Shown in pieces: positions 7,939 to 47,054 of a DNA stretch of 64,000 nucleotides. The notes beneath the pieces were generated by a model. The model saw only the letters and a program-made list of their open reading frames with translations, was not told where the DNA came from and searched no databases. The first letter of the stretch is position 1. Each line of letters begins with the position of its first letter. The translations under genes were made by a program, and so were the position numbers. Source of the DNA: Patescibacteria group bacterium. Lineage in GTDB: Bacteria > Patescibacteriota > Patescibacteriia > JAXHNJ01. Where the stretch lies: positions 210,741 to 274,740 of the forward strand of contig JBAZMP010000001.1 in the NCBI GenBank assembly GCA_041649715.1, given 5' to 3'.

Positions 7939-7940
7939 TT

Positions 7941-8576: not shown

Positions 8577-8582
8577 TTAATA

Positions 8583-30700: not shown

Positions 30701-31427
30701 CAACAGATTGGTTCCTTCCGTCGGTCAGCCGCAGTCTACGGCAAACCCTTGGCTGGTGGAGCAATATCGTAAATTTACCCTGCCGAATGCCAGCTTGCCC
30801 AATAGTATCCTTGGCCGGGTGGATTATAATAATATGAAAAAAGATTGCGGCGCGCTCGGCACATATTATGACGGAGATCTGACTTTGATCGGGGGCACGT
30901 ATTTTGATATTGCCAACGGATTAGCCGGCAAGACTTATTGTGTTCGTAAAGCGGAGGGTCACAACGGTGATTTTACTATCTCTATTCCCCTGACCTTTAA
31001 TAATGCCAAAAATACGGTTACCGACGGTTCGGGACTTTTTGTCGTTGACGGCAATTTAAATATCCAAAACAATATAAAATATATGGATAATGAAGCGGCC
31101 ATAACCAATCTGAAAAAATTAGCTTCGGTCGCCTTTTACGTCAAAGGAGATATCTATATCAGCCCGACGGTTGACACCCTTGTCGGCACCTATTATGCGG
31201 AAGGAAAAATAATCACCCAAAGCATGGGTTCCGCCGATAAAAAACTGACGGTTTACGGGACAATGATTGCCCGCGAGTTTGATCTTGGCAGGCGGTATAA
31301 AGGTACGATCTCCAATCCTCAGCCCTCAGAGCTCTTTATTTATGACGGACGCGTGCAACTGAATCCGCCGCCGGGTTTCCGGGATTTAAGTCAGTCTTTG
31401 CCGAAAATAACAGATGTTTCTCTTTAG
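27732..31427 (+). CDS. Giant secreted Cys-rich surface protein
   Basis: 1231 aa. N-terminal TM. More than 70 Cys in CxxC/CxDxxC-like spacings. No enzymatic motif recognised. Confidence 0.55.
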   Translation: MMPKLIRENPAYFIVPIFVLIIGAVFFFAEKGGQAKEWERLASPAGFTQGRLSGITAYYDTSSNRLMLWAMGGGYIGGVSHPSGMPDVAAILSYDSLSGDWKGLQANNSGLINAVSNYDPLSKYTYAVGDQGTILMKVSLTSEWQIYHEYNNGSGWFLDPLNGDMSYATPIPVENDNLTDVSFYSSGDSSNFSVNAWATGYNYQTKKGNIFKTTSSLGIKWVNDLSNVGFPLLGLQMIKEGTSWAVGANHTIYKYSGGAWTEYTATDLSSLNFDSCTESGNNDFCSGNPSWSCVAGSALATEDCIIDFEDVYFTDNSHGWIPISSKKYLYYNGASWQIRSTLRPGSEPEVKMHAVAGGLDNNVPYIWFSGQAGMTIFAPNATEAVDHWLRQSTPNLDTGRLNNLFVLDSTHAWSAGYFNTAGQLLSDNIVLKLSSGNTAGYAYIGADNCENTCIDSVAGGACQTDPSAINCPSSGLPRQAPLGWVSFNCVNNGSCESNPFIYGVDLKKETETTDPNDSCVNKDPDPSFQDKDVGALSGQAWLGVTDPDERSDDTCALDVCSNNNQKSCDDDDDCALCGNNPASCFSPGWLSFDRNETSNPPSSPYIATMSPFYTPCGKPITVFDYEKYAMAFFSYEDYAVRGWGKFKLGQCSGNLSKSCYKDGDCESGDTCRFDFNGIHYCSLDSSLRCSTSAECAAQGKGICDQTAQGWLKLRGGKNYSLDSPNGEPPPITAPTNRYIYHNCNACTLVDPNLVTAYMTCKICDGLNIDGTAANYACNKCGEGSNRCGDGRCDNNTLKVCVQNSNSSLDSCKPGGTCQPSGYCSAGSGALAYKPCAAKNGHCGTDGICQRGYCSAGSSNRYNPCYNDEDCPSGSSSGYCEIKNPVTCNQCASCDAYGVSVDINAGNFYGYAWSEDFGWVDMSRVTLGGAAWLQTLFGDIYGQQGVGSTKTAKAPCAANTYNATYLILAGEAGKIVNFCTESISSSAEGESNRLVPSVGQPQSTANPWLVEQYRKFTLPNASLPNSILGRVDYNNMKKDCGALGTYYDGDLTLIGGTYFDIANGLAGKTYCVRKAEGHNGDFTISIPLTFNNAKNTVTDGSGLFVVDGNLNIQNNIKYMDNEAAITNLKKLASVAFYVKGDIYISPTVDTLVGTYYAEGKIITQSMGSADKKLTVYGTMIAREFDLGRRYKGTISNPQPSELFIYDGRVQLNPPPGFRDLSQSLPKITDVSL

Positions 31428-31508: not shown

Positions 31509-32594
31509 ATGGCCCTTTTTGGGGGTAAGAAAAGTTATCTTGGTCTGGATTTAGGCACTTCTTCCATAAAATTAGTGGAATTGGCCGCTTTTGGCACCGA
31601 GCCGCGGCTTTTGACCTATGGATTTATTGAAGAGCCGACGGACATGGTAAAAAGCGACTCGGAGCTGGCTCGGGGTCGTCTGGTCAGTTTTTTGAAACAA
31701 TTGATCAAAAAAACCAAGGTTGGGTCCAATAAAGTGGTGGCCGCTTTGCCCTCCTTTACCGTATTTTCCTCCATTATCTCCCTGCCGGCCATGTCTAAGA
31801 AAGATTTGAACGCGGCCGTGCGCTGGGAAGCGAAAAAATTCGTGCCCATGCCTCTGGAAGAAATGGTTTTGGACTGGCGGCTTCTCAAGGAGACGACAGG
31901 CGAAAAGGGCGGAGCGATGGCGGCCATGTCCATGAGATCAAGGGAAATGATCAAGAATTACCGTATCTTGCTGACCGCCGCCCCGAAAAATCTGGTCAAG
32001 CGCTATATTGAGTTATTCAAAGCCTTAAATCTGACCATCGTTAGTCTGGAAACCGAGGCTTTTGCCCTGGAAAGATCGCTGATCGGTTCCGATCCCTCGC
32101 CGATGATGATCGTGGATATCGGAGCGCTGGCCAGCGATATCAGCGTTATCTACGAAGGCGTGCCGATTTTAAACCGCGGCATTGATATCGGCGGAGAAAC
32201 GATTACCCGGGCGGTGGCGAATGCCCTGAATATTGATCTGGAAAGAGCCGAACAATTCAAGCGCGATTTTGGCTTGTCCGCCGGTTCCGGCGCGCAGGGT
32301 CAAATTCCCAAGACCATTGAATTTGTCCTTTCCTCTCTGATCAACGAGATCAGGCACGTTTTCACCCTCTACCGCAACGTGGAGGAAGCGCCGATTGAAA
32401 AAATCGTCTTGTCCGGCGGCTCGGCCTTTCTGCCCCAATTGCCGGAATATTTATCCCGTCTTTTCAACATTAAAGTGATTATCGGTGATCCCTGGTCAAG
32501 GATCGCTTACCCGGCGGAACTAAAGCCGGCCCTGGAAGAAATAGGGCCCCGATTTTCCGTGGCCGCCGGTCTGGCCATGCGGGAAATAATTTAA
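31509..32594 (+). CDS. pilM: Type IV pilus assembly protein PilM
   Basis: 361 aa. Actin-like ATPase fold signature LGLDLGTSSIKLVEL. PilM length. Confidence 0.85.
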   Translation: MALFGGKKSYLGLDLGTSSIKLVELAAFGTEPRLLTYGFIEEPTDMVKSDSELARGRLVSFLKQLIKKTKVGSNKVVAALPSFTVFSSIISLPAMSKKDLNAAVRWEAKKFVPMPLEEMVLDWRLLKETTGEKGGAMAAMSMRSREMIKNYRILLTAAPKNLVKRYIELFKALNLTIVSLETEAFALERSLIGSDPSPMMIVDIGALASDISVIYEGVPILNRGIDIGGETITRAVANALNIDLERAEQFKRDFGLSAGSGAQGQIPKTIEFVLSSLINEIRHVFTLYRNVEEAPIEKIVLSGGSAFLPQLPEYLSRLFNIKVIIGDPWSRIAYPAELKPALEEIGPRFSVAAGLAMREII

Positions 32595-32609
32595 ACCCAA
32601 CGATTTTTT

Positions 32610-33752
32610 ATGCCAGATATTAATTTACTAAAAGACACTCTCGCTTCGCAAGAAGAAAGAAGGAAAAAGGAGGTTTTCTCTTCCCCGGCTTTTAAAAGAC
32701 CCGAAGCCCCTCCCGAGCCTCCCGAGAACCAGCCAAAAAGTTCTTCGTTTTTTTCTTCTATTAAAAAGATTTTCTCCGGTAAGCGGCGAGATGAGGATGA
32801 AGTGACCGTGGCGCCCCTGATCAAGGCTTCAACCTACCAGCGGGAAGAATTTATGAGGACCAAAGCGACCGGTAAAGCCAAGGAGGGAAACGGCAGCCCC
32901 GAGGATATTTTTGCCGAAAAAATAACAGAGGGGGGAAATAAGCCGTTTGTTCCGCTGGCCGAGATAGTTCCGCCCGAAGAAAATATTCCGCTAAAGGCAG
33001 ATAAGAAAACGAAAAAAGAAGAAATAGAAGAGGGAAGCGGTTCATTCCTCGTCAATCTCCTGCCGGAAGAACTTATTGGCCAGGAAGCGCCGCGACAGAA
33101 ATTGATAGTTATGAGCGTTTCTTTTTTGGCCGCCGTTATGCTGATCGCGCTGGTCTATTATGTTTTATTGTTCTATCAATCAAGCATAGAAACTAAGACC
33201 GCCGAGGTGAAAACGCAAAAAATCGAGGTGACCGGTGAAATCAGTAAATATGAGAATCTCCAGAAAGAATCCATCGCTTTTAAGGGGAAAATTGACGCCG
33301 TAAGCGATCTTTTAGATACTCACATATACTGGACAAAATTTTTCGAAAAATTGGAAAACAATACCCTGCCGGACGTTTATTACAGCGGAGTTTTTAACGC
33401 CTCCAACTCCACGGTTTTATCCCTTAAAGCGGTGGCACCGGATTTTGAAACGGTGGCGAAACAGCTTTTAGTTTTTCAGAACGCGACGGATTTTGCGACG
33501 GCGGCGGAAATTACCTCGGCTCGGCGGGTGGCGGCCACTTCTTCTTCAAGTGTTTTAGCCCCGGGCGTGGTTATCGCCAGTCAGGTGGAATTTGACATTG
33601 ACCTGGTCTTAAATCCGGCAATTTTCTATAGAACCGAAAATGAGCCAGGCGAAAACACCAATACTAACAGTAATCCCCTGAATAACGCTAACGCGAATAT
33701 TAACGTCAATACTAACGTAAATTCAGCCTCTAATACTAATACTGTAAAATAG
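32610..33752 (+). CDS. pilN: PilN-like fimbrial assembly protein with low-complexity extensions
   Basis: 380 aa. N-terminal INLLK motif. Single TM (LIVMSVSFLAAVMLIALVYYVLLFY). Asn-rich C-terminal tail. Confidence 0.55.
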   Translation: MPDINLLKDTLASQEERRKKEVFSSPAFKRPEAPPEPPENQPKSSSFFSSIKKIFSGKRRDEDEVTVAPLIKASTYQREEFMRTKATGKAKEGNGSPEDIFAEKITEGGNKPFVPLAEIVPPEENIPLKADKKTKKEEIEEGSGSFLVNLLPEELIGQEAPRQKLIVMSVSFLAAVMLIALVYYVLLFYQSSIETKTAEVKTQKIEVTGEISKYENLQKESIAFKGKIDAVSDLLDTHIYWTKFFEKLENNTLPDVYYSGVFNASNSTVLSLKAVAPDFETVAKQLLVFQNATDFATAAEITSARRVAATSSSSVLAPGVVIASQVEFDIDLVLNPAIFYRTENEPGENTNTNSNPLNNANANINVNTNVNSASNTNTVK

Positions 33753-33765
33753 TTCTCTTTAGGTT

Positions 33766-34431
33766 ATGACATTTAATTTTTCCGCAATAACTTCAAAATT
33801 GAAAAACCTGGTAAGCAAGTATTTTCGTTTTATACTTGTGATAATTATCGCTATTGTCTTGATTATCGGCTACACTTCAGTGATAAAGCCGAAGTGGTCC
33901 GAGATACAGCAAGCCGGTATTTTCGACTACAATAAGGAGAAAAAAAGTTTGGAGGAAAACAATCAGTACCTTGATCGCCTTAAAGCCTCTTTGGAAAAAT
34001 ATAATGGCATCAATAAAGCGGAAGTGGACAAGATCAGCCGGATTATCCCTTCAAGTGATTCCGTGTCCGATCTGTTCGTCCTTTTTGAAGAATTGGCCAA
34101 GACCAGCGATCTAAATTTGGACAGTATCAACATCTCATCGGCAAAAAGCCTTACCGGGGAGTCAAGCACGCCGACCGGAACTTCGCCGACCACGGAGGTG
34201 AAGGCAGTCACCCCCGCTTCAAAGAATATTTACGTTCAGGATATTGCTCTTCATCTTTCCGGGGCGAAAAATTACGAGAATCTAAAAGAATTCCTGGAGA
34301 TTTTAGAAAAGGAAATGAGACTTATTGACGTTACTTCTTTGAGCTTTGACTCCAAAAATTTTGAAAACAATGAATCTGAAAGCGATATCAGTCTGAATTT
34401 AAAGACCTATAACTATCAGGAAAAAGAATAA
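33766..34431 (+). CDS. pilO: PilO-like pilus assembly protein
   Basis: 221 aa. TM followed by a coiled-coil region. Sits at the PilO position in the locus. Confidence 0.45.
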   Translation: MTFNFSAITSKLKNLVSKYFRFILVIIIAIVLIIGYTSVIKPKWSEIQQAGIFDYNKEKKSLEENNQYLDRLKASLEKYNGINKAEVDKISRIIPSSDSVSDLFVLFEELAKTSDLNLDSINISSAKSLTGESSTPTGTSPTTEVKAVTPASKNIYVQDIALHLSGAKNYENLKEFLEILEKEMRLIDVTSLSFDSKNFENNESESDISLNLKTYNYQEKE

Positions 34432-34437
34432 TTTTAT

Positions 34438-34725
34438 ATGGCTTTAGTCAGGAAAAAAAACTATAAGAAAATGGTCGTCTATGCGGTGATATTGGTTATC
34501 ATGATTATTGTCGGCGTTTATTTTCTTATTAATTCTACGGCTAACCCGGCTAATACGAATACCGGTGTCGGAAGCATTCCTACCGGTTACTTGCCCATCG
34601 TCAGCGATTATGGGCAGGATTTGTTCACGGACCGGGATTATCAAGATTTGGAAGATTTCGCCGGCAGTAAATTACCGCTTGATCCTGACAGTATTCAAAA
34701 AGGAAGAGAAAATCCTTTTAAATAA
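34438..34725 (+). CDS. Small membrane-anchored protein (PilP position)
   Basis: 95 aa. Single N-terminal TM. Confidence 0.35.
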   Translation: MALVRKKNYKKMVVYAVILVIMIIVGVYFLINSTANPANTNTGVGSIPTGYLPIVSDYGQDLFTDRDYQDLEDFAGSKLPLDPDSIQKGRENPFK

Positions 34726-34742: not shown

Positions 34743-36509
34743 ATGTCGGTTAATTATAAAAATTCGGGCAATTCGGCTCCGGAAGACGAACTTCTGGAGT
34801 TTTTACTGCAGGGAAAGTTGATCAACCGGACGCAGTATGAAGAGATAAAAAACGAGATGGCAAAAAGCAACCGGCCGTCAGATAAGATCATTGAAGAAAA
34901 AAAATTGGTCCGCGAGGATGATCTTTATCAGATCAAGTCAAAGATTTATAATTTGCCCTATCTGGATCTCTTCGGCCGGATCGTACGGGCCGAGGTTCTG
35001 AACATAATTCCTAAAGAACTGGCGGAAAATTATCGAATGGTCGCTTTCAATAAGTCTGACCAGGAATTAAGCGTGGCTATGGTGGAACCGACCAATTTCC
35101 GGGCCCTGGAAGCAATCGAGTTTATCGCCCGCAAAAACCACTTTAAGATCAAATATTACATCACTTCGCCCTCTTCTCTTAAATATATCCTTCGGCAGTA
35201 TGAAACGCTTTCCGCCGAAGTCGAAGAAGCCCTGCAGGGGGCCGAAACGGAAGCCATGGAGGTTAAGGAGATATCTTTGGCGGAAGAGGGTCTGGAGGAA
35301 GTGGTCAAAACCGCGCCGGTTTCCAAGATGGTTTCCGTCATATTAAGGCACGCGGTCGAGGGCAAGGCCTCGGATGTTCACATCGAGCCATTCGGGGCGG
35401 AGACACGGGTGCGCTATCGTATTGACGGTATTCTGCACACTTCGTTGATTTTACCCCGTCACGTTCATTCCGCCATTGTCGCCCGCATAAAAGTATTATC
35501 CAACCTGAAAATTGATGAAACGCGCGTGCCGCAGGACGGCCGCTTTAAGATGACTTACGAGGGCCGAGATGTCGATTACCGTATTTCCACCCTGCCTTTG
35601 ATCAATAACGAAAAAGTGGTGATGCGTATCTTGGATACCACGTCGAGCATGAGCAATCTGGCCGATCTTGGTTTCTGGGGCAAGTCGATGGAGATTATGA
35701 AAGCGAATATCGATAAATCACACGGCATGTTCCTTATCACTGGTCCCACCGGTAGCGGAAAATCCACCACTCTTTACGCCTTGATGAGCATATTAAATCA
35801 GGAAGAGGTCAATATCATCACTCTTGAAGATCCCGTGGAATACTATATGAAAGGCGTTAATCAAAGCCAGGTGAATCCGGAAGTGGGGCTGACTTTTGCC
35901 GCCGGCTTGCGGTCTATCTTGCGCCAGGATCCGGATATCATCATGGTCGGTGAGGTCCGGGACAATGAAACAGCCGAACTCGGCGTGCACGCCGCTTTGA
36001 CCGGGCATATTGTCCTTTCCACCCTGCACACCAATGACGCCATGGGGGCGGTTCCCCGGATGATCGATATGAAAGTGGAGCCCTTTTTGCTCACGTCTTC
36101 CGTGAACCTGATCATGGCCCAGCGTCTGGTGCGCCGCATCTGCCCCCATTGCAAAAAAGAAATTACCCTGGCTTCAACCCTGGAAGATGAGGTTATGGAG
36201 GAATTAAAAGTTATTCCCAAGGAGCATCAACCCACTGATATTAAATTGGTCAGACCATTTAAGATGTTCATGGGGCAAGGCTGCGTCCGGTGCGACAATA
36301 CCGGATATAAAGGCAGAATCGCCATTTGTGAGGTTTTGGAAATCAACGAACGGATGAAGAAGATAATTCTTGAGGGAGGCGACATGGTCCTTAAGATAAG
36401 GGAAGAATTCTTGAAACAGGGCAATTATTTTATGAGACAAGACGGTATTGTTAAGGCTTTCCGGGGATTGACCACCATTGAAGAAGTTTGGGACGCGACC
36501 CGATCTTAG
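34743..36509 (+). CDS. pilB: Type IV pilus assembly ATPase PilB (GspE family)
   Basis: 588 aa. N-terminal GspII-like domain. Walker A ITGPTGSGKSTTLYA. Asp box DIIMVGEVRDNETA. His box GHIVLSTLHTND. Tetracysteine CPHC...CVRC. Confidence 0.9.
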   Translation: MSVNYKNSGNSAPEDELLEFLLQGKLINRTQYEEIKNEMAKSNRPSDKIIEEKKLVREDDLYQIKSKIYNLPYLDLFGRIVRAEVLNIIPKELAENYRMVAFNKSDQELSVAMVEPTNFRALEAIEFIARKNHFKIKYYITSPSSLKYILRQYETLSAEVEEALQGAETEAMEVKEISLAEEGLEEVVKTAPVSKMVSVILRHAVEGKASDVHIEPFGAETRVRYRIDGILHTSLILPRHVHSAIVARIKVLSNLKIDETRVPQDGRFKMTYEGRDVDYRISTLPLINNEKVVMRILDTTSSMSNLADLGFWGKSMEIMKANIDKSHGMFLITGPTGSGKSTTLYALMSILNQEEVNIITLEDPVEYYMKGVNQSQVNPEVGLTFAAGLRSILRQDPDIIMVGEVRDNETAELGVHAALTGHIVLSTLHTNDAMGAVPRMIDMKVEPFLLTSSVNLIMAQRLVRRICPHCKKEITLASTLEDEVMEELKVIPKEHQPTDIKLVRPFKMFMGQGCVRCDNTGYKGRIAICEVLEINERMKKIILEGGDMVLKIREEFLKQGNYFMRQDGIVKAFRGLTTIEEVWDATRS

Positions 36510-36539: not shown

Positions 36540-36959
36540 ATGCATATGAGCGAAGAAAAAGCGAAAAAACAGGGCAAGCCAAAAGTATTGCTGGTGGAGG
36601 ACGATACCTTCCTTTCCGGCATGTACGTGACAAAATTGGGTCTGGAAAATTTCGCCGTCAGTTTGGCCTCCGACGGGAAACAGGGTCTGAAAATGATAAA
36701 GGACGAACTGCCGGATTTGATCCTTCTAGACCTGGTTTTGCCGAAAATCAGTGGTTTTGACATTCTTAAGGAAATAAAAAAGGATAAAAAAACAAAGGAT
36801 ATTCCGGTTATTCTGCTGACTAATTTAGGCCAAAAAAAGGACGTGGAAAAGGGTTTTGCCTTGGGCGCCAACGATTATCTTATCAAGGCTCATTTCATGC
36901 CTTCCGAGGTGGTGGACAAGGTCAAGAATATGATGAACAAAAAATATGCAGGCGAGTGA
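36540..36959 (+). CDS. Stand-alone CheY-like response regulator receiver (PilH/PilG-like)
   Basis: 139 aa. EDD acidic pocket. Phospho-acceptor D in LILLDLVLP. Conserved T (LLTNLG) and K (YLIKA). Confidence 0.8.
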   Translation: MHMSEEKAKKQGKPKVLLVEDDTFLSGMYVTKLGLENFAVSLASDGKQGLKMIKDELPDLILLDLVLPKISGFDILKEIKKDKKTKDIPVILLTNLGQKKDVEKGFALGANDYLIKAHFMPSEVVDKVKNMMNKKYAGE

Positions 36960-38019
36960 AAAAATATTTATCGACAAGATCCTTGCTATCGGCGCAGAAT
37001 ACCGCGCCTCGGATTTTCATTTGTCAGTCGGCAACCCGCCGATCTTGAGAGTGGACGGCAAGCTTATCCCTTTGGTCAGCGAACCCTTGCTGACGGTTGA
37101 TTTTATGAAGAATTTTGTCAGTTCTATCCTGGACAAAGATCAGCAAGCGATCTTGGAAAAAGAAAAGGAAATCGTCTTTGCCTACACCATGGAAAATAAA
37201 GCGCGTTTTAAGATCGGCATTTTTTACCAAAAAGGAAATCTTGCCGCCTCCTTGCGTCTGATTGCCAACCAGATCAAATCATTGAAAGAACTGGGTCTGC
37301 CCGCCATTGTGGAAAAATTCGCGGAATTAGAAAAAGGCCTGGTCATTCTGTCCGGCCCTTTCGGTTCCGGCCGGACCGCCACTTTAGGGGCGCTGCTTAA
37401 TACAATCAACAGAAACCGGGCCGAGCACATCATTACTATTGAAAAACCGATTGAATATGTTTACCTGAATAATAAAAGCATTATTGAGCAGAGAGAAGTG
37501 GGCAAGGACACGATGTCTTTTGAGCAGGCTTTAGTTACCGCGGCCCATGAAGATTTCGATGTCATTTACGTTTCCGAAGTGGAAAGTCTGCCCGTGGCCG
37601 AGAACGTCCTCAACGCCGCCGAATCTTCCCGCCTGGTGCTGACCACCATGAACACGGATTCCGTCCTGCGCACCCTGGAAAAGATTATTTCTTTTTTTCC
37701 CGACCAGAGACAGGCTGAAGCGAGGGACCAATTAGCCAGCGTGATAGAGGGTGTCGTTTCCCAGCGGTTGTTGCCGCGGGTGGGGGGCGGCCGGATCGCC
37801 GTGGCGGAGGTCCTGATCCCTAATGATGCCGTGCGGTCAGTAATCCGCGAAGGGGCCATTTACCAAATAAATAATATTTTGCAGACTTCCCGCGAGGAAG
37901 GGATGATTTCTCTGGACCGTTCTCTGGCGGAATTATTGCGAACGGGAGAAATACTGGCTGACGATGCGCTGGCCAATGCCGTGGATAAACAGAGTTTGAG
38001 ATTAATGATGCGGCGGTAG
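36946..38019 (+). CDS. pilT: PilT-like retraction ATPase paralog with degenerate catalytic motifs
   Basis: 357 aa. PilT-like N-terminus (ASDFHLSVGNPPILRVDGKL). Walker A is GPFGSGRTATL (Lys to Arg). Asp box is DVIYVSEVES (GEMRD lost). His box is LVLTTMNTDS (His to Asn). Confidence 0.7.
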   Translation: MQASEKIFIDKILAIGAEYRASDFHLSVGNPPILRVDGKLIPLVSEPLLTVDFMKNFVSSILDKDQQAILEKEKEIVFAYTMENKARFKIGIFYQKGNLAASLRLIANQIKSLKELGLPAIVEKFAELEKGLVILSGPFGSGRTATLGALLNTINRNRAEHIITIEKPIEYVYLNNKSIIEQREVGKDTMSFEQALVTAAHEDFDVIYVSEVESLPVAENVLNAAESSRLVLTTMNTDSVLRTLEKIISFFPDQRQAEARDQLASVIEGVVSQRLLPRVGGGRIAVAEVLIPNDAVRSVIREGAIYQINNILQTSREEGMISLDRSLAELLRTGEILADDALANAVDKQSLRLMMRR

Positions 38020-38177: not shown

Positions 38178-39386
38178 GTGCCACTCTTCGAATATAAGGC
38201 CAAAAATAAATACGGCGGTTCCGTGACCGGTCGGATCGACGCTCCGAGCGAAAATGTCGCTCACGATATTTTGCGGGAAAAAGAGTTGATAATTCTTACT
38301 CTATCGGAAAAGCGGACCGTCACTTTGTTGCAGTCGACCTTTGGCTTCCTGAAAAGAGTGCCGCGCAAACAAGTGGTGCTGTTCTCCCGCCAGTTGGCCG
38401 TTTTGATTTCCGCGACGGTGCCCATCGTCCAGGCCTTGCGGATTTTGGTCAAGCAGCAGAAAAATATCAATTTCAAGATAATCCTTTCTGAGATCGCCGA
38501 CGAAGTGGACGGCGGCGCCCGGCTCTCCCAGACGCTGGGTCGCTACCCGCAGGTTTTCTCCGATTTTTTTGTCCATATGGTCCGTTCCGGAGAAACGACC
38601 GGCAAACTGGACGAGACCCTGAATTACCTGGCCGACCAGCAGGAGAAAGATTATGACCTGATGAGCAAAATAAAAGGGGCCATGATTTACCCCATTTTCA
38701 TTATTGGCGTGATCGGGGTGGTCGGAGTTTTGATGATGGTATTTGTCCTACCCAAGCTGACTGAAGTGCTAAAGGAGGGCGGAGCGCAACTCCCTCTTTC
38801 CACCCGGATCGTCATGGGCGCGAGCACTTTTATGCAGAAACAATGGTGGCTTTTGGTGATTATAGTCATCGGCATCGTTTTCGCCTATAACGCGATTAAT
38901 CGCAGTCAGGCTGGTCACCTGAAGATCGATATGTTAAAAATGCGGCTGCCGATTTTTGGCAGCATTTTCCAGAATATTTATATGGTCAGATTTTCCCGAA
39001 GCTTGGCCACCTTGCTGGTTTCCGGCGTCCCCCTCACCCGGTCTTTAGAGATCACCTCGGATATCATCGGCAACCGGGTTTATAAAAATCTGATCGAGGA
39101 AACGATCAAAGAAGTGGAGGCCGGTAAATCCATCGCCACGGTTTTCTTAAAAAGCAAAGCTATCCCCATTATGTTGCCGCACATGATGGCGATCGGCGAG
39201 CAGACCGGCAAACTGGACCTCATCTTGGATAAGATCTCCGGTTTTTACGCCCGCGAGCTGGAAACGACGGTGGAAAACCTGGTCAGCCTTATCCAGCCTT
39301 TGATCTTGGTCTTAATGGGTATCGCCGTGGCGGTAATAGTAATGGCGGTTTTATTGCCCATGTATAATCTTTCACAGGCTATTTAG
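38178..39386 (+). CDS. pilC: Type IV pilus inner-membrane platform protein PilC (GspF family)
   Basis: 402 aa. Two GspF repeats. Three TM blocks. Confidence 0.85.
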   Translation: MPLFEYKAKNKYGGSVTGRIDAPSENVAHDILREKELIILTLSEKRTVTLLQSTFGFLKRVPRKQVVLFSRQLAVLISATVPIVQALRILVKQQKNINFKIILSEIADEVDGGARLSQTLGRYPQVFSDFFVHMVRSGETTGKLDETLNYLADQQEKDYDLMSKIKGAMIYPIFIIGVIGVVGVLMMVFVLPKLTEVLKEGGAQLPLSTRIVMGASTFMQKQWWLLVIIVIGIVFAYNAINRSQAGHLKIDMLKMRLPIFGSIFQNIYMVRFSRSLATLLVSGVPLTRSLEITSDIIGNRVYKNLIEETIKEVEAGKSIATVFLKSKAIPIMLPHMMAIGEQTGKLDLILDKISGFYARELETTVENLVSLIQPLILVLMGIAVAVIVMAVLLPMYNLSQAI

Positions 39387-39567: not shown

Positions 39568-40095
39568 ATGAAAAATAAAAAAAGAGGCTTCACTTTGATT
39601 GAACTATTGGTCGTTATCGCCATTATCGGTATTTTGTCAGCCATCGGCTTGGTCGCCTTAAACGGCGCCCGGGAAAAGGCCAGAGACGCCCAGAGGCGGT
39701 CAGATATCGCCCAAACGAGGACCGCTCTGACTTTGTATTTTGACGACAATAGTTCAAAATATCCTGTTACCGTAGCTGGCTCCGGCACTCCCGATGTATC
39801 AGCTTATGGTACTACGGCGGCAACAGCCCTTGGAGTATGGGCATCAGGAGGTGCTTTAGTGACTGGTTATCTGGCTCAAGAGTTAAAAGCCCCCGGCTCT
39901 GAATTAGACCATGCCTATAAGTATGACAGTGCTTCTACTGCTCGGCTTGAATATTATTTATATACCGATTTGGAGGCAGGGGTTGGTACCCATGTTTATG
40001 CCATAAATGAGGACGGAACCGTCACGGATTACGCGGACAACATGACGACTGAACCTAATTGCGCGGTTGGCGCCTGCACCGCACCGGCGGCGTAA
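39568..40095 (+). CDS. pilA: Type IV major pilin PilA
   Basis: 175 aa. Class III signal [23 protein letters not shown]. Strong SD. Confidence 0.8.
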
Positions 40096-40154
40096 ATTTA
40101 ATCGTCAGCAAATTATTATAAAACAAGAGAGTTCTTATTTAACATAGGACTCTT

Positions 40155-40793
40155 TTGTTTGTGTCTAACAAATGCTATAATTATCTTATGTGGCTGAAAA
40201 CTTTCTATTTTTTTGATGCGCGTTTTTTACTGGTCGTTTTTTGCCTGCTCGGTCTTTGGTTTTTTTGGCAGTACGTAAAATATAAGGAAATAAAAAGACA
40301 GGCCGTCATTTTCGCTTTTTTGATTTTTTTGGTTCTTTTTACTCTGTCGATTTTTTTGCCCGCCTGGCAAACCTACAAAAGTTTTGCGGCCAGCGACTTA
40401 AACCGGTATTACCTGCCTCCTTATTCAAATTATTATTATCAGATTCTGCAGCGCCAGCTGACCAATTATTTTTCCCATATCCTGGCCGCCCTGATCGCAG
40501 GCTTAATTTTTTGGCTGGTCAAGCGTTTGACCCATGGCCTGGTCATTGATCAGTCGGATGTCGGCCTGCTGGCCTTCGGCGCGCTAGTCGCCGGCTGGCC
40601 GAATCTGCTCATTTTTTTCGGCTTGGTGTTTCTTTTGGTCATTATCACCGGCCTTGTCCAGCTGGCTGTGATCAAAGAAAGATCTAACGCGCGTTTCATC
40701 ATCACCCCCTATCTGCCCGTCGCTTTGATTCTTACTTTATTTGTCGGCAACCATCTTTCTCTCTTGATCCATCTGGAAAAAATTCGATTTTAA
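40155..40793 (+). CDS. Hypothetical polytopic membrane protein
   Basis: 212 aa. At least five hydrophobic helices. Confidence 0.45.
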   Translation: MFVSNKCYNYLMWLKTFYFFDARFLLVVFCLLGLWFFWQYVKYKEIKRQAVIFAFLIFLVLFTLSIFLPAWQTYKSFAASDLNRYYLPPYSNYYYQILQRQLTNYFSHILAALIAGLIFWLVKRLTHGLVIDQSDVGLLAFGALVAGWPNLLIFFGLVFLLVIITGLVQLAVIKERSNARFIITPYLPVALILTLFVGNHLSLLIHLEKIRF

Positions 40794-40818
40794 GCCGTGT
40801 TTATGCTACAATTAATTT

Positions 40819-41229
40819 ATGGATCAAAAAGGCTTTAGTCTAAAAGAACTGCTTATCGTTATTTCCCTGGTTTTAGTGCTGATCGTTTTTGGGGTGGCCC
40901 TGATAAGCAGTGAAAGAGCCAAGGTGCGAGACGCCCGCCGGATGGCTGACCTGACCCAGGTGCGCTTCGGTTTTGAGGTCCTTTTTCAGGAGAAAAATTC
41001 ATACGCCGAGGCGGCGGCCGGCTGCAGCCAAGTGGGCAACCTGGTTTCTGCCTGTAGTTTAGGTGCCTATCTGGCCGATATCGCCTCCATCAAGGATCCC
41101 GGCCGGAGCCGCTATCAGGTGACCGTGGTGCCTAACGAGGAAAATTACGAAGTGACTTTCTTTCTGGAAAAGGGCTACGATAGCCTTAAGAAGGGCAAGC
41201 ATACCTTATCGGCGGTCGGCATCAGATAA
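40819..41229 (+). CDS. Pilin-like protein (degenerate prepilin signal)
   Basis: 136 aa. KGFSLKELLIVISLVLVLIVFGV. Confidence 0.55.
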   Translation: MDQKGFSLKELLIVISLVLVLIVFGVALISSERAKVRDARRMADLTQVRFGFEVLFQEKNSYAEAAAGCSQVGNLVSACSLGAYLADIASIKDPGRSRYQVTVVPNEENYEVTFFLEKGYDSLKKGKHTLSAVGIR

Positions 41230-41378
41230 ATTGCTTTCTCCTATTGGTTTTTTGTTCTTGTCTTTGCCTGGAATATCATTAAACAAGGCTGTTTTTTGGC
41301 AAAACCGGCTTTAAAAAGCCTATTTTTCGTTAACCAGACCTTAAGCCATAATCCGCTAATTCCTCCCTTTAATTTGGG

Positions 41379-42182
41379 GTGAGAATTTGTTATAATAAAC
41401 TCATCATGGAAACCATTTTTTCTTATATTCTAGTGGCTGTATTTGGCCTTATTATCGCCAGTTTCCTTAATGTCGTGATCTACCGCCTGCATGAGAAGAA
41501 ATCATTTATTAAGGGCCATTCTTATTGCCCCAAATGCCAGCACGCCCTGAAAGCGGCTGATCTGGTTCCCATTTTCAGCTTTATCCGGCTTAAGGGGCGC
41601 TGTCGCTATTGCCGTCAAAAAATCTCCTGGCAGTATCCACTGGGCGAAGCGCTGTTGGCCCTGGCCTTTTGCCTCTTGTTTTTTTACTTTAACTGGTCGT
41701 GGTCGTTCGTATTTTATCTGATCGATACCTGCTTTTTATTCATGATTTTCCTCTATGATCTTAAATACTTTCTTATCTTGGACCAGGTTAGCCTGCCGGC
41801 CATCGTTTGCGCTCTGATTTTCAGCATTATTATGGAAATGCCCCTCTTGGATCTTTTGCTTGGCGGTCTGATCGGCGGCGTTTTTTTCCTCGCCCAATAC
41901 GTGATTTCCCGCGGCCACTGGATCGGCGGGGGCGATATCCGTTTAGGCGTGCTGATGGGTTTTATTTTGGGCTGGGAGAAATTTTTAGTCGCTTTGTTCC
42001 TCGCCTATATCGCCGGTTCCCTTGTTTCACTTATTTTGATTATCGTGAAAAGAAGAAGCCTAAAAAGCCAGCTGGCCTTCGCGCCTTTTTTAGTGGCCAG
42101 TACCTTTATCACCCTTCTTTACGGCCAGCGGATTTTAGACTGGTATCTGGCGGGCAATTTAGTTAATTGGCTTCTTTATTAA
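41379..42182 (+). CDS. pilD: Prepilin peptidase PilD (A24 family)
   Basis: 267 aa. Tetracysteine CPKC...CRYC. Polytopic. Catalytic Asp-containing motifs. Confidence 0.85.
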   Translation: MRICYNKLIMETIFSYILVAVFGLIIASFLNVVIYRLHEKKSFIKGHSYCPKCQHALKAADLVPIFSFIRLKGRCRYCRQKISWQYPLGEALLALAFCLLFFYFNWSWSFVFYLIDTCFLFMIFLYDLKYFLILDQVSLPAIVCALIFSIIMEMPLLDLLLGGLIGGVFFLAQYVISRGHWIGGGDIRLGVLMGFILGWEKFLVALFLAYIAGSLVSLILIIVKRRSLKSQLAFAPFLVASTFITLLYGQRILDWYLAGNLVNWLLY

Positions 42183-42183
42183 T

Positions 42184-42789
42184 ATGAGAAACAAGGGTCT
42201 AAAAAACGGTTTTACGCTCATCGAAATATTGATTTCACTCGGCATATTTGCTTTGCTTTTGGGCATCATCGTGAACGGTTTTATGAGCACGAAAAAAATT
42301 GAGAACATAAAACAAGGGGCCTTGGAGCTCGTCACTAATATCCAGAAAGCTCAGAATTTGGCCCTGACCGGCATTTCCCACAATAATGCCGTGCCGGTCG
42401 GCGGATACGGGGTTCATCTTAATAATCTTGCCAGTCAATATAATATTTTCGCAGATTTTTATTCCTCAGACGCTAACTGTAATGCCTCACAGCTGGATGG
42501 AAAATCGGACGAGAAGTATAATTGCGCTAAGGAAGATTACGCTATTATTAACTTGCCGGCAGGCGTTAGCATCTGCAAAATCGGCTCGGGCGCCTCAAGC
42601 GCCCCCAGCCTCGACCTGGCTTTTAAGGCGCCGGAATACCGGCCGTATATCAACGGACTGCTGGGCGGAACAACGCAGATCATATTGAAAATGAACGACG
42701 CGAATGTTTGCCGGAAGGTGACCGTGCAGGACATTGCCGGCCGCGCCAGCGAGCAAGTTATTAAATGCACTGATGCGGGCTGCCCATAA
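42184..42789 (+). CDS. Minor pilin / pseudopilin
   Basis: 201 aa. KNGFTLIEILISLGIFALLLGII. Confidence 0.6.
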   Translation: MRNKGLKNGFTLIEILISLGIFALLLGIIVNGFMSTKKIENIKQGALELVTNIQKAQNLALTGISHNNAVPVGGYGVHLNNLASQYNIFADFYSSDANCNASQLDGKSDEKYNCAKEDYAIINLPAGVSICKIGSGASSAPSLDLAFKAPEYRPYINGLLGGTTQIILKMNDANVCRKVTVQDIAGRASEQVIKCTDAGCP

Positions 42790-42801
42790 TTTATTATTCT
42801 T

Positions 42802-43464
42802 ATGCTTGATTTTGGAAAAAACAATAAATTATCCGGCCAGTCTCTGATAGAGACTATTATTGCCATTGGCCTGGTGATGACGGTTGTTATCAGTTCGATA
42901 ACCATGGGTGTTTATGTTACCCGGCTAGGCCGCGGCAGCCAGAACAACCTGGTGGCCGTAAATCTGGCCCGCGAGGGGCTGGAAGTGGTCCGCAATATCC
43001 GTGACGGAAACTGGCTGAAAAAAAGCCAAGGGGTGGAATATCAAGCCGGGCCGCCGATAGTATATTATCAATGGGACACGGGTTTAGATGGCTGCAGTGG
43101 CGCTAATTATTGTCTTGTGCGACCGGAGTTTACCACCGTTGGCGGTTTTCTCGTTTTTGATAAATGGGCGTTGCATAAAATAGAAAGCCCCTATTGTTTA
43201 CCTCCAGATATACAAAATAATGCCTGCCGTTTAAAAAGAGCGGTAGGAGTCAACACTTTTACAATCGATGATTTTCACCTATATAATCACAGGGCCACTG
43301 TTGTTAATAGAAATATTGCCACTGATTTTTATCGTAGCATCGGCATTTCCGAGCGGGATTTAAGCGGCGGCCGCACGGTTAAAGCCACGGTTAAATGGAG
43401 GGAAAATAATATTGATAAAAAAATCATCCTGGAAGAATATTTAACTGATTGGCGCTATGAATAA
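42802..43464 (+). CDS. Minor pilin-like protein
   Basis: 220 aa. SGQSLIETIIAIGLVMTVVI prepilin-like N-terminus. Confidence 0.5.
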   Translation: MLDFGKNNKLSGQSLIETIIAIGLVMTVVISSITMGVYVTRLGRGSQNNLVAVNLAREGLEVVRNIRDGNWLKKSQGVEYQAGPPIVYYQWDTGLDGCSGANYCLVRPEFTTVGGFLVFDKWALHKIESPYCLPPDIQNNACRLKRAVGVNTFTIDDFHLYNHRATVVNRNIATDFYRSIGISERDLSGGRTVKATVKWRENNIDKKIILEEYLTDWRYE

Positions 43465-44170
43465 TATTTATCCCCTAAATAAAAAAGGCTTTACTCTGCT
43501 GGAATTGCTTGTTTCCGCCGCGATTTTTTCCATAGTCTTGGTGGTCGGGGTAGACTTGTTTTTTACCATCGTGAAAATCCAGAAAAGGACGAGTTACGTG
43601 CAGACGATCCAGGTAGACGCGAGAAATATCTTGGAAAATATGGCCCGAGTGACCAGGAACGGGGTCATTGACTACACGTATTACGCCGACCCCAAGGGTG
43701 ATGGTACTGATTCTACTCATAATAATGACAAGATAGAATTTAGCCAGCTTTACGATAAGACAAATAACAATAAAAAATTGGTGGTTCGCGACCAGGATAA
43801 TAACCAGTATTTTTTTCAAAGAGTGACGGTGACAGAGTCGGGCAAGGCGCGCGACGTGATCAAGGCTTGCACTTTTATGGTCAATGACGCCACTCAAGCA
43901 GCCGGCCGGTGCACAAACCCCGCTGATCCCAACTTAAACACGGCTTGGGAAATAGTTACGCCGAATAACGTGAAAGTGACTAATTTCCTGATTTTTGTCC
44001 AGCCGGGAGCAAACCCTTTTATTTTGGATAATAACAGCCTTACTTATTTGTCCAATGAACAGCCGCTGGTCACTATTGTCCTGCATACCGCTTCCACGGC
44101 CTCAGAAAAAAGCTATCAATTTAATTCATATCTGCAAACAACGGTTTCTTCACGCCTTTATTTAAGATAA
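43457..44170 (+). CDS. Minor pilin / pseudopilin
   Basis: 237 aa. KKGFTLLELLVSAAIFSIVLVVG. Start overlaps the previous gene by 8 nt. Confidence 0.6.
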   Translation: MNNIYPLNKKGFTLLELLVSAAIFSIVLVVGVDLFFTIVKIQKRTSYVQTIQVDARNILENMARVTRNGVIDYTYYADPKGDGTDSTHNNDKIEFSQLYDKTNNNKKLVVRDQDNNQYFFQRVTVTESGKARDVIKACTFMVNDATQAAGRCTNPADPNLNTAWEIVTPNNVKVTNFLIFVQPGANPFILDNNSLTYLSNEQPLVTIVLHTASTASEKSYQFNSYLQTTVSSRLYLR

Positions 44171-44175
44171 AATCT

Positions 44176-47054
<2,879 letters not shown>

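What the first reader, a model, noticed from the sequence alone, without database searches (positions are those of the whole stretch)
36946..38019. PilT paralog with all three catalytic signatures substituted
Compared with the canonical PilB in the same locus (GSGKST, GEVRD, TLHTND), the PilT-like gene has GSGRTAT (Walker A Lys to Arg), SEVES (Asp-box arginine lost) and TMNTDS (His-box His to Asn). The N-terminal PilT fold is otherwise intact. It is predicted ATPase-dead, and may be a regulatory or structural retraction-ATPase homolog.
Basis: partly seen in the sequence, partly recalled or inferred. Interest (0 to 1): 0.6.

Follow-up and report, generated by a model that had tools for sequence, protein, structure and literature searches.

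The report
Catalytically degenerate PilT in Patescibacteria pilus operon
The pilus-retraction motor gene (pilT) of this ultra-small bacterium, and of a whole related lineage, has lost nearly every residue needed to burn ATP yet is strongly conserved, so these cells probably control or retract their type IV pili without the usual motor.

Summary
ORF 36946-38019 (+, 357 aa) is a full-length PilT (E=1e-81 to Aquifex PilT; model pLDDT 91, TM 0.86-0.89 to Geobacter PilT4). It keeps 1 of 8 catalytic-signature residues: Walker A Lys->Arg, Asp-box Asp->Lys, Walker B Gly->Ser, the invariant Arg-Asp after the catalytic Glu ->Glu-Ser, both His-box His ->Arg/Asn. One of two arginine fingers is Lys, and both pore-loop-1 acidic residues are gone.

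It is not a one-off. At least 110 non-redundant Patescibacteria sequences form one cluster with the same pattern. The P-loop glycines, Ser/Thr and the Mg-binding Glu are 99-100% kept, but the catalytic Glu only 63%.

The gene is under strong purifying selection (dN/dS about 0.06, like pilB).

It is not shown to be a paralog. It sits in the pilB-RR-pilT-pilC slot that holds a canonical PilT in other Patescibacteria.

Best reading (confidence 0.5): a nucleotide-binding, hydrolysis-impaired PilT that still docks on the pilus machine as a switch, brake or passive retraction factor. Activity was not measured. I could not check for a second, canonical pilT elsewhere in the genome.

I found no description of this in the literature searched. 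I rate it a new variant of a known kind.

The parts
36946..38019 (+). pilT* : full-length PilT-family gene (357 aa) with degenerate catalytic signatures
   Evidence: PF00437; E=1e-81 to AaPilT; TIGR01420 344 bits, cutoff 319; pLDDT 91; TM 0.86-0.89 to GmPilT4.
37354..37383 (+). Walker A / P-loop GPFGSGRTAT (Lys->Arg143; glycines and Thr144/Thr146 kept)
   Evidence: In the clade position 143 is R 71% / K 26% and position 144 is S/T in 100%.
37435..37458 (+). Asp box TIEKPIEY (Asp->Lys167; Mg-coordinating Glu170 kept)
   Evidence: E170 is 99% conserved in the clade and D167 is kept in 11%. The role of this Glu (GmPilB E357) is taken from PMC5424180.
37552..37593 (+). Atypical Walker B, catalytic Glu and pore loop 1: DFDVIYVSEVESLP (G->S210; E211 kept; R->E213; D->S214; E->P216)
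   Evidence: In the clade position 213 is never R, E211 is kept in 63%, position 214 is D in about 24% and position 216 is E in 40%. The mapping to GmPilB E395/R397/D398/E400 uses motif spacing.
37618..37662 (+). His box AESSRLVLTTMNTDS (H->R229, H->N236, T->S227)
   Evidence: In the clade position 229 is H in 4% and position 236 in 0%. GmPilB H420 coordinates the gamma-phosphate (PMC5424180).
37204..37257 (+). N2D arginine-finger segment RFKIGIFYQKGNLAASLR (finger 1 R->K89; finger 2 R104 kept)
   Evidence: In the clade position 89 is K 58% / R 40% and position 104 is R 76%; both are R in 100% of canonical PilTs. The 15-residue spacing matches GmPilB R271/R286.
37828..37851 (+). AIRNLIRE-like motif AVRSVIRE (PilT-specific C-terminal motif, partly kept)
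   Evidence: I300 is 90% conserved; the other positions are looser than in canonical PilT.
36540..36959 (+). Stand-alone receiver-domain response regulator (CheY/PilG/PilH-like). Its 3' end overlaps the pilT* start by 14 nt. Gene callers start it at 36546.
   Evidence: (PF00072, 1.4e-22). The same RR lies between pilB and pilT* in L001, L014, L087-L090 and L093, and upstream of pilT* in L066. The residues at the CheY signature positions (D21, D22, D64, T94, K116) were read from the sequence.
34743..36509 (+). pilB, canonical extension ATPase with MshEN domain and intact Walker A, Asp box, Walker B and His box
38178..39386 (+). pilC platform protein (T2SSF x2)
31509..34725 (+). pilM, a pilN-position gene (no family hit), a pilO-like gene and a small 95-aa gene upstream of pilB
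   Evidence: conserved order.
39568..45030 (+). Major pilin, a 212-aa protein with no family hit, a pilin-like gene, prepilin peptidase pilD (41379-42182) and four genes in the minor-pilin slot
   Evidence: the same order in related loci.

Best explanation
pilT* encodes the type IV pilus operon's own PilT. In this Patescibacteria lineage it has become a pseudo-ATPase.

Shown:
- It keeps the complete PilT two-domain fold.
- It keeps the phosphate-binding P-loop (with Arg in place of Lys), the Mg-coordinating Asp-box Glu and one arginine finger.
- It has lost the Walker A Lys, the invariant Arg next to Walker B, both His-box histidines, the Asp-box Asp, one arginine finger and the acidic pore-loop-1 residues predicted to engage PilC.

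Inferred:
- It still forms the hexamer, binds Mg-nucleotide and docks under PilC/PilM in competition with the canonical PilB.
- It hydrolyses ATP very slowly or not at all, so it cannot act as a power-stroke retraction motor.
- It instead works as a nucleotide-gated switch or brake. It displaces or blocks PilB and lets the pilus stall or depolymerise passively, at low force.
- The CheY-like receiver protein that is co-transcribed and probably translationally coupled just upstream is the likely input deciding which ATPase engages the platform.
For: (1) Fold and family. E=1e-81 over the full length to AaPilT. TIGR01420 is above its cutoff. The AlphaFold model has pLDDT 91.3 and TM 0.86-0.89 to GmPilT4.

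(2) The pattern of loss is selective (117 non-redundant degenerate against 174 canonical sequences).
- Binding residues are kept: S/T144 100%, E166 99%, E170 99%, R/K143 97%. G137 is invariant and G140, S141 and G142 are at least 90% conserved among 60 clade members.
- Hydrolysis and coupling residues are gone: R213 0%, H236 0%, H229 4%, D167 11%, G210 13%, catalytic E211 only 63%, finger 1 R 40%. Pore-loop D214 is kept in about 24% and E216 in 40%.

(3) It is kept by selection. dN/dS is about 0.06 (pN 0.128, pS 0.72) against the 80%-identical ortholog, the same as pilB. The substituted residues are themselves conserved: R143 71%, S210 76%, R229 72%.

(4) Constraint is relaxed relative to a working motor. 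PilT is more conserved than PilB in 153/153 pairs of canonical Patescibacteria loci, but PilT* is less conserved than PilB in 20/21 pairs of degenerate loci. The divergence ratio is 0.84 against 1.18.

(5) A single cluster. 110/117 degenerate sequences fall in one neighbour-joining split containing no canonical sequence, with the motif columns masked.

(6) Operon position. pilB-RR-pilT*-pilC or pilB-pilT*-pilC is found in the window and 9 further distinct loci. L066 shows RR-pilT*-pilC on a contig that ends before pilB. The same slot holds a canonical PilT in other Patescibacteria.

(7) Literature.
- All these residues are required for PilT-like ATPase activity and function; H420 and R286 contact the gamma-phosphate and E357 binds Mg (PMC5424180).
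- A natural PilT R206S is a loss-of-function allele (PMC6762196).
- Rad51 Walker A K->R still binds ATP, but its ATPase falls to background (PMC1919488).
Against: - No biochemical measurement exists. The 'K->R binds but does not hydrolyse' rule is explicitly called an often untested assumption in PMC1919488.
- This particular protein keeps the catalytic Glu, the Mg-Glu, the Ser/Thr and one arginine finger. Residual or alternative catalysis is therefore possible. The newly conserved basic residues R143, K167 and R229 could rebuild a phosphate-binding site.
- Hexamer formation and docking on PilC/PilM are inferred from fold and operon position only. Loss of the pore-loop-1 acidic residues could mean that PilC engagement is also changed.
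- Whether the genome has a second, canonical PilT/PilU could not be tested. Only 64 kb of a contig of about 608 kb is visible.
- The role of the response regulator is inferred from adjacency alone. That adjacency also occurs with canonical PilT, so it is not specific to the degenerate state.
Confidence: 0.5

Rival explanations
1. PilT* is still a working, perhaps slow, retraction ATPase with a rewired active site. Arg143 replaces the P-loop Lys, and the newly conserved basic residues Lys167 and Arg229 replace the lost Arg213, His229 and His236 in gamma-phosphate handling.
For: The window protein keeps the catalytic Glu211, the Mg-binding Glu170, Thr144 and arginine finger R104. The replacement residues are conserved rather than random: R143 71%, K/R167 58%, R/K229 80%. 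A basic residue at 167 goes with an acidic one at 213 (Fisher p=7e-4, not corrected for phylogeny). This suggests a compensated charge swap, so the site is kept intact rather than abandoned. Selection is strong.
Against: The catalytic Glu is lost in 37% of the clade, including members in the same operon slot (P0138 has Gln). That is hard to reconcile with a conserved catalytic function. No clade member has the invariant Arg or the gamma-phosphate His. Single substitutions at these positions inactivate characterised PilTs (PMC6762196; PMC5424180). The CTD core is less conserved than in canonical PilT, and PilT* evolves faster than PilB, the reverse of canonical loci.
Confidence: 0.2
2. PilT* is an inert adaptor that recruits a separate active motor to the platform. 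The motor would be a canonical PilT/PilU-like ATPase encoded elsewhere in the genome, or PilB acting in both directions. This is what ATPase-dead PilT does for PilU in Vibrio cholerae.
For: In V. cholerae, PilT Walker A/B mutants still support near-normal pilus function through PilU, and PilU cannot work without PilT (PMC6762196). Tandem PilT-PilT fusion proteins with one degenerate and one canonical module exist in other organisms (P0127, P0187). This shows that dead and live PilT modules do pair up.
Against: No second PilT/PilU gene lies in the 64 kb window or within +-10 kb of the 11 other distinct degenerate loci. PilU normally lies next to pilT. None of the canonical PilTs that carried an organism name came from the named lineages with PilT* (Kerfeldbacteria, Buchananbacteria), though the sample is small. 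These genomes are small, about 0.6-1.3 Mb.
Confidence: 0.2
3. PilT* is a decaying relic of a retraction motor that these episymbionts no longer need.
For: Catalytic residues are lost, and PilT* evolves faster than PilB.
Against: The reading frame is intact and full-length in more than 170 sequences. dN/dS is about 0.06, equal to pilB. The clade holds 30 positions at least 90% identical to canonical PilT and 14 clade-specific positions at least 80% conserved. The operon position is conserved.
Confidence: 0.03

Closest known systems
Canonical PilT retraction ATPase (Aquifex aeolicus PilT 2ewv; Geobacter metallireducens PilT4 6ojx; P. aeruginosa PilT 3jvv)
   Same: Same length and two-domain N2D+CTD fold, with no N1D or zinc finger. 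About 38% identity over the structural alignment to GmPilT4, with TM 0.86-0.89. Above the TIGR01420 cutoff. An AIRNLIRE-like motif is present. Same position between pilB and pilC.
   Different: Lacks the Walker A Lys, the Asp-box Asp, the Walker B Gly, the invariant Arg-Asp after the catalytic Glu, both His-box His, one arginine finger and the pore-loop-1 acidic residues. Evolves faster than PilB instead of slower.
Engineered or natural ATPase-dead PilT of Vibrio cholerae (K136A, E204A; natural R206S in strain MO10), PMC6762196
   Same: A PilT that cannot power retraction itself but is still needed as a machine component. R206S hits the same residue that is Glu213 here.
   Different: Those are single-site laboratory or strain-level alleles that work only because PilU is encoded next door. 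Here many sites are changed, the state is fixed across a whole lineage under purifying selection, and no PilU is seen nearby.
PilU (PilT-dependent accessory retraction ATPase; 9n32)
   Same: A PilT-family paralog of the same fold. It is the next-best group of structural matches after PilT itself.
   Different: PilU has fully canonical catalytic motifs and lacks AIRNLIRE. PilU-like sequences (L059, L060, L071 second genes) score as canonical and do not fall inside the degenerate cluster.
ArlH/FlaH of the archaellum, an ATP-binding, non-hydrolysing RecA/KaiC-like partner of the motor ATPase ArlI/FlaI (from my own knowledge, not checked here)
   Same: In concept, a nucleotide-binding but hydrolysis-deficient ring protein in a type IV filament machine that modulates the real motor.
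   Different: An unrelated fold family (KaiC-like, not PilT-like). It is an extra component, not a replacement of the retraction ATPase.
Saccharibacteria (TM7x) PilT, PMC11623550 / PMC12206443
   Same: A Patescibacteria T4P locus with pilB, pilT and pilC. It is the closest canonical relative by score (P0132 family, 43% identity).
   Different: The TM7x PilT has conserved Walker A and B boxes and is linked to twitching motility. Its family is far more uniform: 76-82% identity among the top 120 hits, against 51-83% for the PilT* family.

Membership tests
PilT/PilU family type IVa pilus ATPase (NCBIfam TIGR01420; Pfam PF00437 T2SSE) | Sequence score above the curated family cutoff | tested here: met
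   TIGR01420 scores 344.4 bits against a cutoff of 319.1, covering profile positions 2-342 of 343. PF00437 scores 82 bits against a cutoff of 24.9.
PilT/PilU family type IVa pilus ATPase | Two-domain N2D + CTD fold of about 350 aa, without N1D/MshEN or a zinc finger | tested here: met
   pLDDT 91.3, pTM 0.86. The best PDB matches are all PilT4/PilT/PilU with TM 0.75-0.89.
Functional PilT retraction ATPase | Walker A GxxxxGK[S/T] with the catalytic Lys (PaPilT K136) | tested here: not met
   GPFGSGRTAT, Arg143. Lys is 100% in 174 canonical sequences.
Functional PilT retraction ATPase | Asp box with the Mg-coordinating Glu (PaPilT E163 / GmPilB E357) and the Asp (D160) | tested here: inconclusive
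   Glu170 is kept and Asp->Lys167. The Glu is the residue shown to bind Mg (PMC5424180).
Functional PilT retraction ATPase | Atypical Walker B hhhhGE with the catalytic Glu (E204) | tested here: inconclusive
   Glu211 is kept in this protein and Gly->Ser210. The Glu is kept in only 63% of the clade.
Functional PilT retraction ATPase | Invariant Arg (R206) and Asp directly after the catalytic Glu | tested here: not met
   Glu213 and Ser214. Arg is found in 0% of the clade and 100% of canonical sequences. R206S inactivates V. cholerae PilT.
Functional PilT retraction ATPase | His box with two histidines (H222, H229; GmPilB H413, H420) | tested here: not met
   Arg229 and Asn236.
Functional PilT retraction ATPase | Two N2D arginine fingers (GmPilB R271, R286) | tested here: not met
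   Lys89 (finger 1) and Arg104 (finger 2 kept).
Functional PilT retraction ATPase | AIRNLIRE motif near the C-terminus | tested here: inconclusive
   AVRSVIRE matches 5 of 8 positions. The motif is looser across the clade.
Functional PilT retraction ATPase | Encoded in a T4P locus next to pilB and pilC | tested here: met
   pilB-RR-pilT*-pilC. The order is conserved in related loci.
Functional PilT retraction ATPase | ATP hydrolysis and pilus retraction activity | not testable with these tools
   Needs biochemistry or genetics.
PilU | Canonical catalytic motifs, no AIRNLIRE, encoded beside pilT | tested here: not met
   The motifs are degenerate, an AIRNLIRE-like motif is present and there is no adjacent pilT.
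Pseudoenzyme (pseudo-ATPase): a descriptive class, not a homologous family | Homolog of an enzyme that lacks residues required for catalysis, yet is kept under purifying selection | tested here: met
   7 of 8 signature residues are replaced. dN/dS is about 0.06. The state is conserved across the clade. True loss of activity was not measured.

The most novel reading that the evidence does not exclude
A whole deep lineage of Patescibacteria (Kerfeldbacteria, Buchananbacteria and relatives) runs its only type IV pilus machine with a PilT that binds nucleotide but cannot hydrolyse it. Retraction or arrest of these pili would then be motor-independent, or driven by PilB. PilT* would act as a nucleotide-sensing clutch set by a CheY-like regulator. 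That would be a natural, evolutionarily fixed experiment separating PilT's docking or switch role from its motor role.
Probability: 0.3. Interest if true: 0.75.

Novelty: new variant of a known kind. Interest (0 to 1): 0.62.

Why it matters
PilT is among the strongest molecular motors reported (single-pilus retraction forces above 100 pN). In canonical Patescibacteria loci it is more conserved than PilB.

How pili retract without PilT ATPase activity is an open question in the field. So is whether PilT has a structural or switch role separable from its motor role. The V. cholerae work on ATPase-dead PilT and PilU (PMC6762196) bears on both.

This lineage offers a natural version of that separation. 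Its PilT was stripped of hydrolysis and coupling residues, yet kept by selection in the pilB-pilT-pilC slot.

Patescibacteria are thought to use T4P to attach to host cells, and perhaps for twitching and DNA uptake (PMC11623550). A non-motor PilT would therefore change how pilus function in a large part of this radiation is interpreted.

There is also an annotation problem. Automated pipelines name these proteins 'PilT/PilU family type 4a pilus ATPase' or 'twitching motility protein PilT'. That implies an activity they probably lack.

Tried and rejected
(1) Looking for a second, canonical pilT in the same genome.
- A phmmer search of all stop-to-stop ORFs of at least 100 aa in the window found only pilB and pilT*.
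It returned mostly canonical PilTs from unrelated phyla and none of the close relatives, so it could not be used for co-occurrence.
- The metagenome-contig scan with the single protein found one distant hit only.
- I compared 'longest contig' lengths between the degenerate hits and the hits of the closest canonical representative, P0132. There was no overlap, because the P0132 family is Saccharibacteria.
- I ran no further search on this, since a negative result would be uninformative.

(2) Placing the clade in the PilT tree. My NJ tree rooted on PilU-like sequences puts the degenerate clade outside all other PilTs. This is probably long-branch attraction, so I take from it only that the clade is coherent, not where it arose.

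(3) RR adjacency as a feature specific to the degenerate state. Rejected: the pilB-RR-pilT order also occurs with canonical PilT (L011, L018, L019, L025, L033, L037, L045).

(4) Walker A K/R state covarying with the Asp-box state or the catalytic Glu. No clear link.

(5) Pseudogene or artefact. Rejected on selection and recurrence.

(6) Literature searches for a described degenerate PilT in the candidate phyla radiation, or for a pseudo-ATPase PilT, found nothing relevant.
Full report
**1. What is at the coordinates**

ORF 36946-38019 (+) starts with ATG and encodes 357 aa. It lies inside a complete type IV pilus locus of the kind found in Patescibacteria, with no secretin among the annotated genes:

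| Coordinates | Gene or product |
|---|---|
| 27732-31427 | 1231-aa Cys-rich protein, no Pfam hit |
| 31509-32594 | pilM |
| 32610-33752 | gene in the pilN position, no family hit |
| 33766-34431 | pilO-like |
| 34438-34725 | 95-aa ORF |
| 34743-36509 | pilB |
| 36540-36959 | receiver-only response regulator |
| 36946-38019 | the gene in question |
| 38178-39386 | pilC |
| 39568-40095 | pilin |
| 41379-42182 | prepilin peptidase |
| to 45030 | genes in the minor-pilin slot |
| 45030-47054 | ligA |

The rest of the window is ordinary chromosome: radA, recG, a clp ATPase, gatA, ndk, rpsG, fusA, tuf, rplC and rplD. An identical protein is on record from an NCBI 'Patescibacteria group bacterium' MAG, on a contig of 608,530 bp.

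**2.

phmmer against PDB sequences gives Aquifex aeolicus PilT at E=1.2e-81 over residues 7-356, followed by Geobacter PilT4, Thermus PilT2, P. aeruginosa PilT and PilU. The alignment has no gaps through the catalytic core and shows these changes:

| Motif | Canonical | This protein |
|---|---|---|
| Walker A | GPTGSGKSTT | GPFGSGRTAT |
| Asp box | TIEDPIEY | TIEKPIEY |
| Walker B region | VGEMRDLE | VSEVESLP |
| His box | TGHLVFGTLHTNT | SSRLVLTTMNTDS |

I checked the nucleotide coordinates of each motif by translation.

An AlphaFold model built on 60 family members has mean pLDDT 91.3 and pTM 0.86. It places each motif at the expected strand-loop junction. Foldseek against the PDB returns only PilT4, PilT and PilU at the top, with TM 0.75-0.89. 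So the fold is intact and the motifs are not mis-assigned.

The PilB next door is fully canonical. Only the label 'Asp-box arginine' is wrong, because that stretch is the Walker B, the catalytic Glu and the invariant Arg. The real Asp box is also changed (D->K167).

**3. Mapping to residues of known function**

The window's own PilB served as a ruler. The spacings are:
- catalytic Glu to +3, +5, +16, +18 and +25;
- 38 residues back from the catalytic Glu to the Asp-box Glu;
- 15 residues between the two N2D arginines.

These reproduce exactly the numbering of G. metallireducens PilB in McCallum et al. 2017: E395, D398, E400, T411, H413, H420, E357, R271 and R286 (PMC5424180). In that work:
- E357 coordinates Mg.
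- R286 and H420 contact the gamma-phosphate.
- R271 senses the Asp-box Glu.
- T411, H413 and H420 mediate cooperation between chains.

Residues kept in the window protein:
- Mg-Glu (E170)
- catalytic Glu (E211)
- P-loop Thr (T144)
- gamma-phosphate arginine finger (R104)

Residues replaced:
- P-loop Lys -> R143
- R271-equivalent -> K89
- R397-equivalent (R206 in Vibrio and Pseudomonas PilT) -> E213
- D398-equivalent -> S214
- E400-equivalent -> P216
- T411-equivalent -> S227
- H413-equivalent -> R229
- H420-equivalent -> N236
- Asp-box Asp -> K167

**4. It is a clade-wide state, not a lesion of one genome**

The 120 best database hits (51-100% identity) all show the same pattern: GPFGSG[R>K]TxT, TIE[KQNR]PIE, VSE[ML]xx, AESxRLVxSTMNTDS. 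Every organism name attached to them is Patescibacteria, including several Kerfeldbacteria. An exhaustive HMMER search of 1.84 billion cluster representatives found 47 clusters (at 50% identity) carrying a degenerate domain among its best 150. Some of those are Buchananbacteria or 'Parcubacteria group'.

I scored 8 signature positions over 492 PilT domains. The distribution is bimodal: 178 domains have 4 or fewer canonical residues, 308 have 7 or more, and only 6 lie between.

The table gives the share of sequences with the canonical residue after 80% redundancy reduction, for 117 degenerate and 174 canonical sequences.

| Position | Degenerate | Canonical |
|---|---|---|
| 143 (Walker A) | K 26% (R 71%) | K 100% |
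| 144 | S/T 100% | S/T 100% |
| E166 and E170 | 99% each | 100% |
| D167 | 11% | 99% |
| G210 | 13% | 99% |
| Catalytic E211 | 63% | 100% |
| R213 | 0% | 100% |
| H229 | 4% | 98% |
| H236 | 0% | 100% |
| Finger 1, R89 | 40% | 100% |
| Finger 2, R104 | 76% | 100% |

Residues that bind Mg-nucleotide are therefore held. Residues that hydrolyse ATP, or couple hydrolysis to neighbouring chains and to the pore, are free to vary or are fixed to something else.

With all motif columns masked, a neighbour-joining tree puts 110 of the 117 degenerate sequences in one split that contains no canonical sequence. The seven outside are mostly modules of tandem PilT-PilT fusions. Where the clade attaches to canonical PilTs is not resolved.

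**5. It is maintained by selection, but less tightly than a working PilT**

Against the 80%-identical ortholog in L087, NG86 gives pN 0.128 and pS 0.72, so dN/dS is about 0.06. That equals pilB (0.06) and is lower than pilC and pilM (about 0.11). dS is near saturation, so the ratio is approximate.

Thirty positions are at least 90% conserved and identical in both groups. Fourteen are at least 80% conserved only in the degenerate clade.

In pairwise comparisons of whole loci:
- PilT is more conserved than PilB in 153 of 153 pairs of canonical Patescibacteria loci.
- PilT* is less conserved than PilB in 20 of 21 pairs of degenerate loci.
- The divergence ratio (1-idT)/(1-idB) is 0.84 against 1.18.

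This is what one expects if the catalytic constraint was removed and a different, still strong, constraint remained.

**6. It is the operon's own PilT, not an extra paralog**

The order (large protein)-pilM-N-O-small-pilB-RR-pilT*-pilC-pilins-pilD recurs in L001, L087, L088, L089 and L090. The core order pilB-RR-pilT*-pilC recurs in L014 and L093 as well. L066 shows RR-pilT*-pilC on a contig that ends before pilB. L094 has pilB-pilT*-pilC without the RR.

The same pilB-RR-pilT-pilC or pilB-pilT-pilC arrangement carries a canonical PilT in Taylorbacteria, Kaiserbacteria, Wolfebacteria, Liptonbacteria, Parcubacteria and Saccharibacteria loci. The TM7x PilT is reported to have conserved Walker boxes (PMC11623550).

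Two K-type members (L003, from the complete Kerfeldbacteria genome CP181398.1, and L006) instead sit next to pilM.

No second PilT-family gene occurs in the 64 kb window. None occurs within +-10 kb of the other degenerate loci. The rest of the genome could not be inspected.

**7. Mechanism**

*Shown:* the fold, the pattern of retained and lost residues, the selection, the operon slot, and the receiver gene that overlaps the start codon.

*From established knowledge:*
- Substitutions in these motifs abolish ATPase activity and in vivo function of PilT-like ATPases (PMC5424180; PMC6762196).
- A single natural R206S phenocopies inactive PilT.
- Walker A Lys->Arg in Rad51 leaves ATP binding (Kd 52 against 9 uM) but reduces ATPase to background. 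The same paper warns that this behaviour is often assumed rather than tested (PMC1919488).
- ATPase-dead PilT can still serve as a machine component (PMC6762196).

*Inferred:* PilT* binds Mg-nucleotide, forms the usual ring and competes with PilB for the PilC/PilM platform, but does not deliver a power stroke. It would act as a nucleotide-gated brake or clutch that permits arrest or passive depolymerisation of the pilus.

The receiver protein has residues at all the CheY signature positions (D21/D22, D64, T94, K116), read from the sequence. It may set the choice of ATPase, by analogy with PilG and PilH of Pseudomonas (from my own knowledge). I give this reading 0.5.

The rivals are:
- a rewired but active, slow ATPase (0.2);
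- an adaptor for a motor encoded elsewhere, or for a bidirectional PilB (0.2);
- decay (0.03).

**8. Comparison with what is known, and novelty**

By sequence and fold this is a member of the PilT/PilU family (TIGR01420 above cutoff). It fails most of the features that define a functional PilT ATPase, as listed in the membership table. The closest functional analogues are the laboratory and natural ATPase-dead PilT alleles of V. cholerae. Those are single-site, recent and PilU-dependent.

I found no paper describing a lineage-wide degenerate PilT in Patescibacteria or elsewhere. The library searched is incomplete, so this is absence of evidence only.

I rate it a new variant of a known kind, with interest 0.62. 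A pilus specialist would be surprised to find the most conserved pilus motor naturally stripped of its catalytic site yet kept. It would also make motor-independent retraction and the non-catalytic role of PilT directly testable. The limits are that everything functional is inferred, the organisms are uncultivated, and a second PilT elsewhere in the genome is not excluded.

Noticed in passing
window 36540-36959 (+): A stand-alone receiver-domain response regulator lies between pilB and pilT*, and its stop overlaps the pilT* start by 14 nt. The pilB-RR-pilT-pilC order recurs in many Patescibacteria loci with either degenerate or canonical PilT (L001, L011, L014, L018, L019, L025, L033, L037, L045, L087-L090, L093). 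No histidine kinase is encoded in the 64 kb window.
   Followed up: partly
window 27732-31427 (+): A 1231-aa Cys-rich protein (TTG start) with no Pfam hit lies directly upstream of pilM. A no-Pfam protein of 1100-1570 aa holds the same slot in L001, L087, L088, L089 and L090. It may be a conserved pilus-associated surface protein of unknown function.
   Followed up: partly
window 37444-37446 and 37582-37584 (codons K167 and E213): In the degenerate clade a basic residue at position 167 (canonical Asp) goes with an acidic residue at position 213 (canonical Arg): 42/68 against 14/49, Fisher p=7e-4, not corrected for phylogeny. This could be a charge-swapped salt bridge. Contact between the two residues was not checked on coordinates.
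   Followed up: partly
proteins P0121-P0129, P0133, P0137, P0169, P0187, P0264 (representatives search): Tandem PilT-PilT fusion proteins of about 540-1020 aa. In several, one module is degenerate and the other canonical (for example P0127 and P0187). These are independent cases of a dead PilT module paired with a live one. Their organisms are unknown.
   Followed up: no
window 1078-9797 (+): A Gram-positive-type conjugation or T4SS-like gene set: a PrgI-like protein (1078-1581, below the Pfam cutoff), a VirB4/TraG P-loop ATPase (2260-4200), and two proteins with a T4SS_pilin domain (5388-6662 and 8583-9797, the latter with a VanY/M15 peptidase domain). A DsbA-like thioredoxin lies at 7941-8576.
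   Followed up: no
window 23443-25650 (+): A 735-aa protein with a C-terminal Hint/PT-HINT (intein-like or pretoxin) domain and a weak WAP-like Cys-rich stretch. It is followed by a 660-aa protein with no Pfam hit (25711-27693). Both lie just upstream of the pilus locus.
   Followed up: no
window 58571-59914 (+): A 447-aa ORF with no Pfam hit lies between fusA (56496-58571) and tuf (60171-61355). This is an unusual insertion in the usually compact str operon region.
   Followed up: no
window 40155-40793 (+): A 212-aa ORF (TTG start) with no Pfam hit lies between the major pilin and a pilin-like gene. An ORF with no Pfam hit sits in the same place in L001 and L088. Its sequence looks hydrophobic by eye.
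   Followed up: no
L003 (CP181398.1, 812778-833827) and L006: A sub-group of the degenerate clade keeps the Walker A Lys (GSFGSGKT) but has lost the Arg, both His and the Asp-box Asp. It is encoded next to pilM rather than between pilB and pilC. The degeneration did not therefore start with the Walker A change in all lines.
   Followed up: partly
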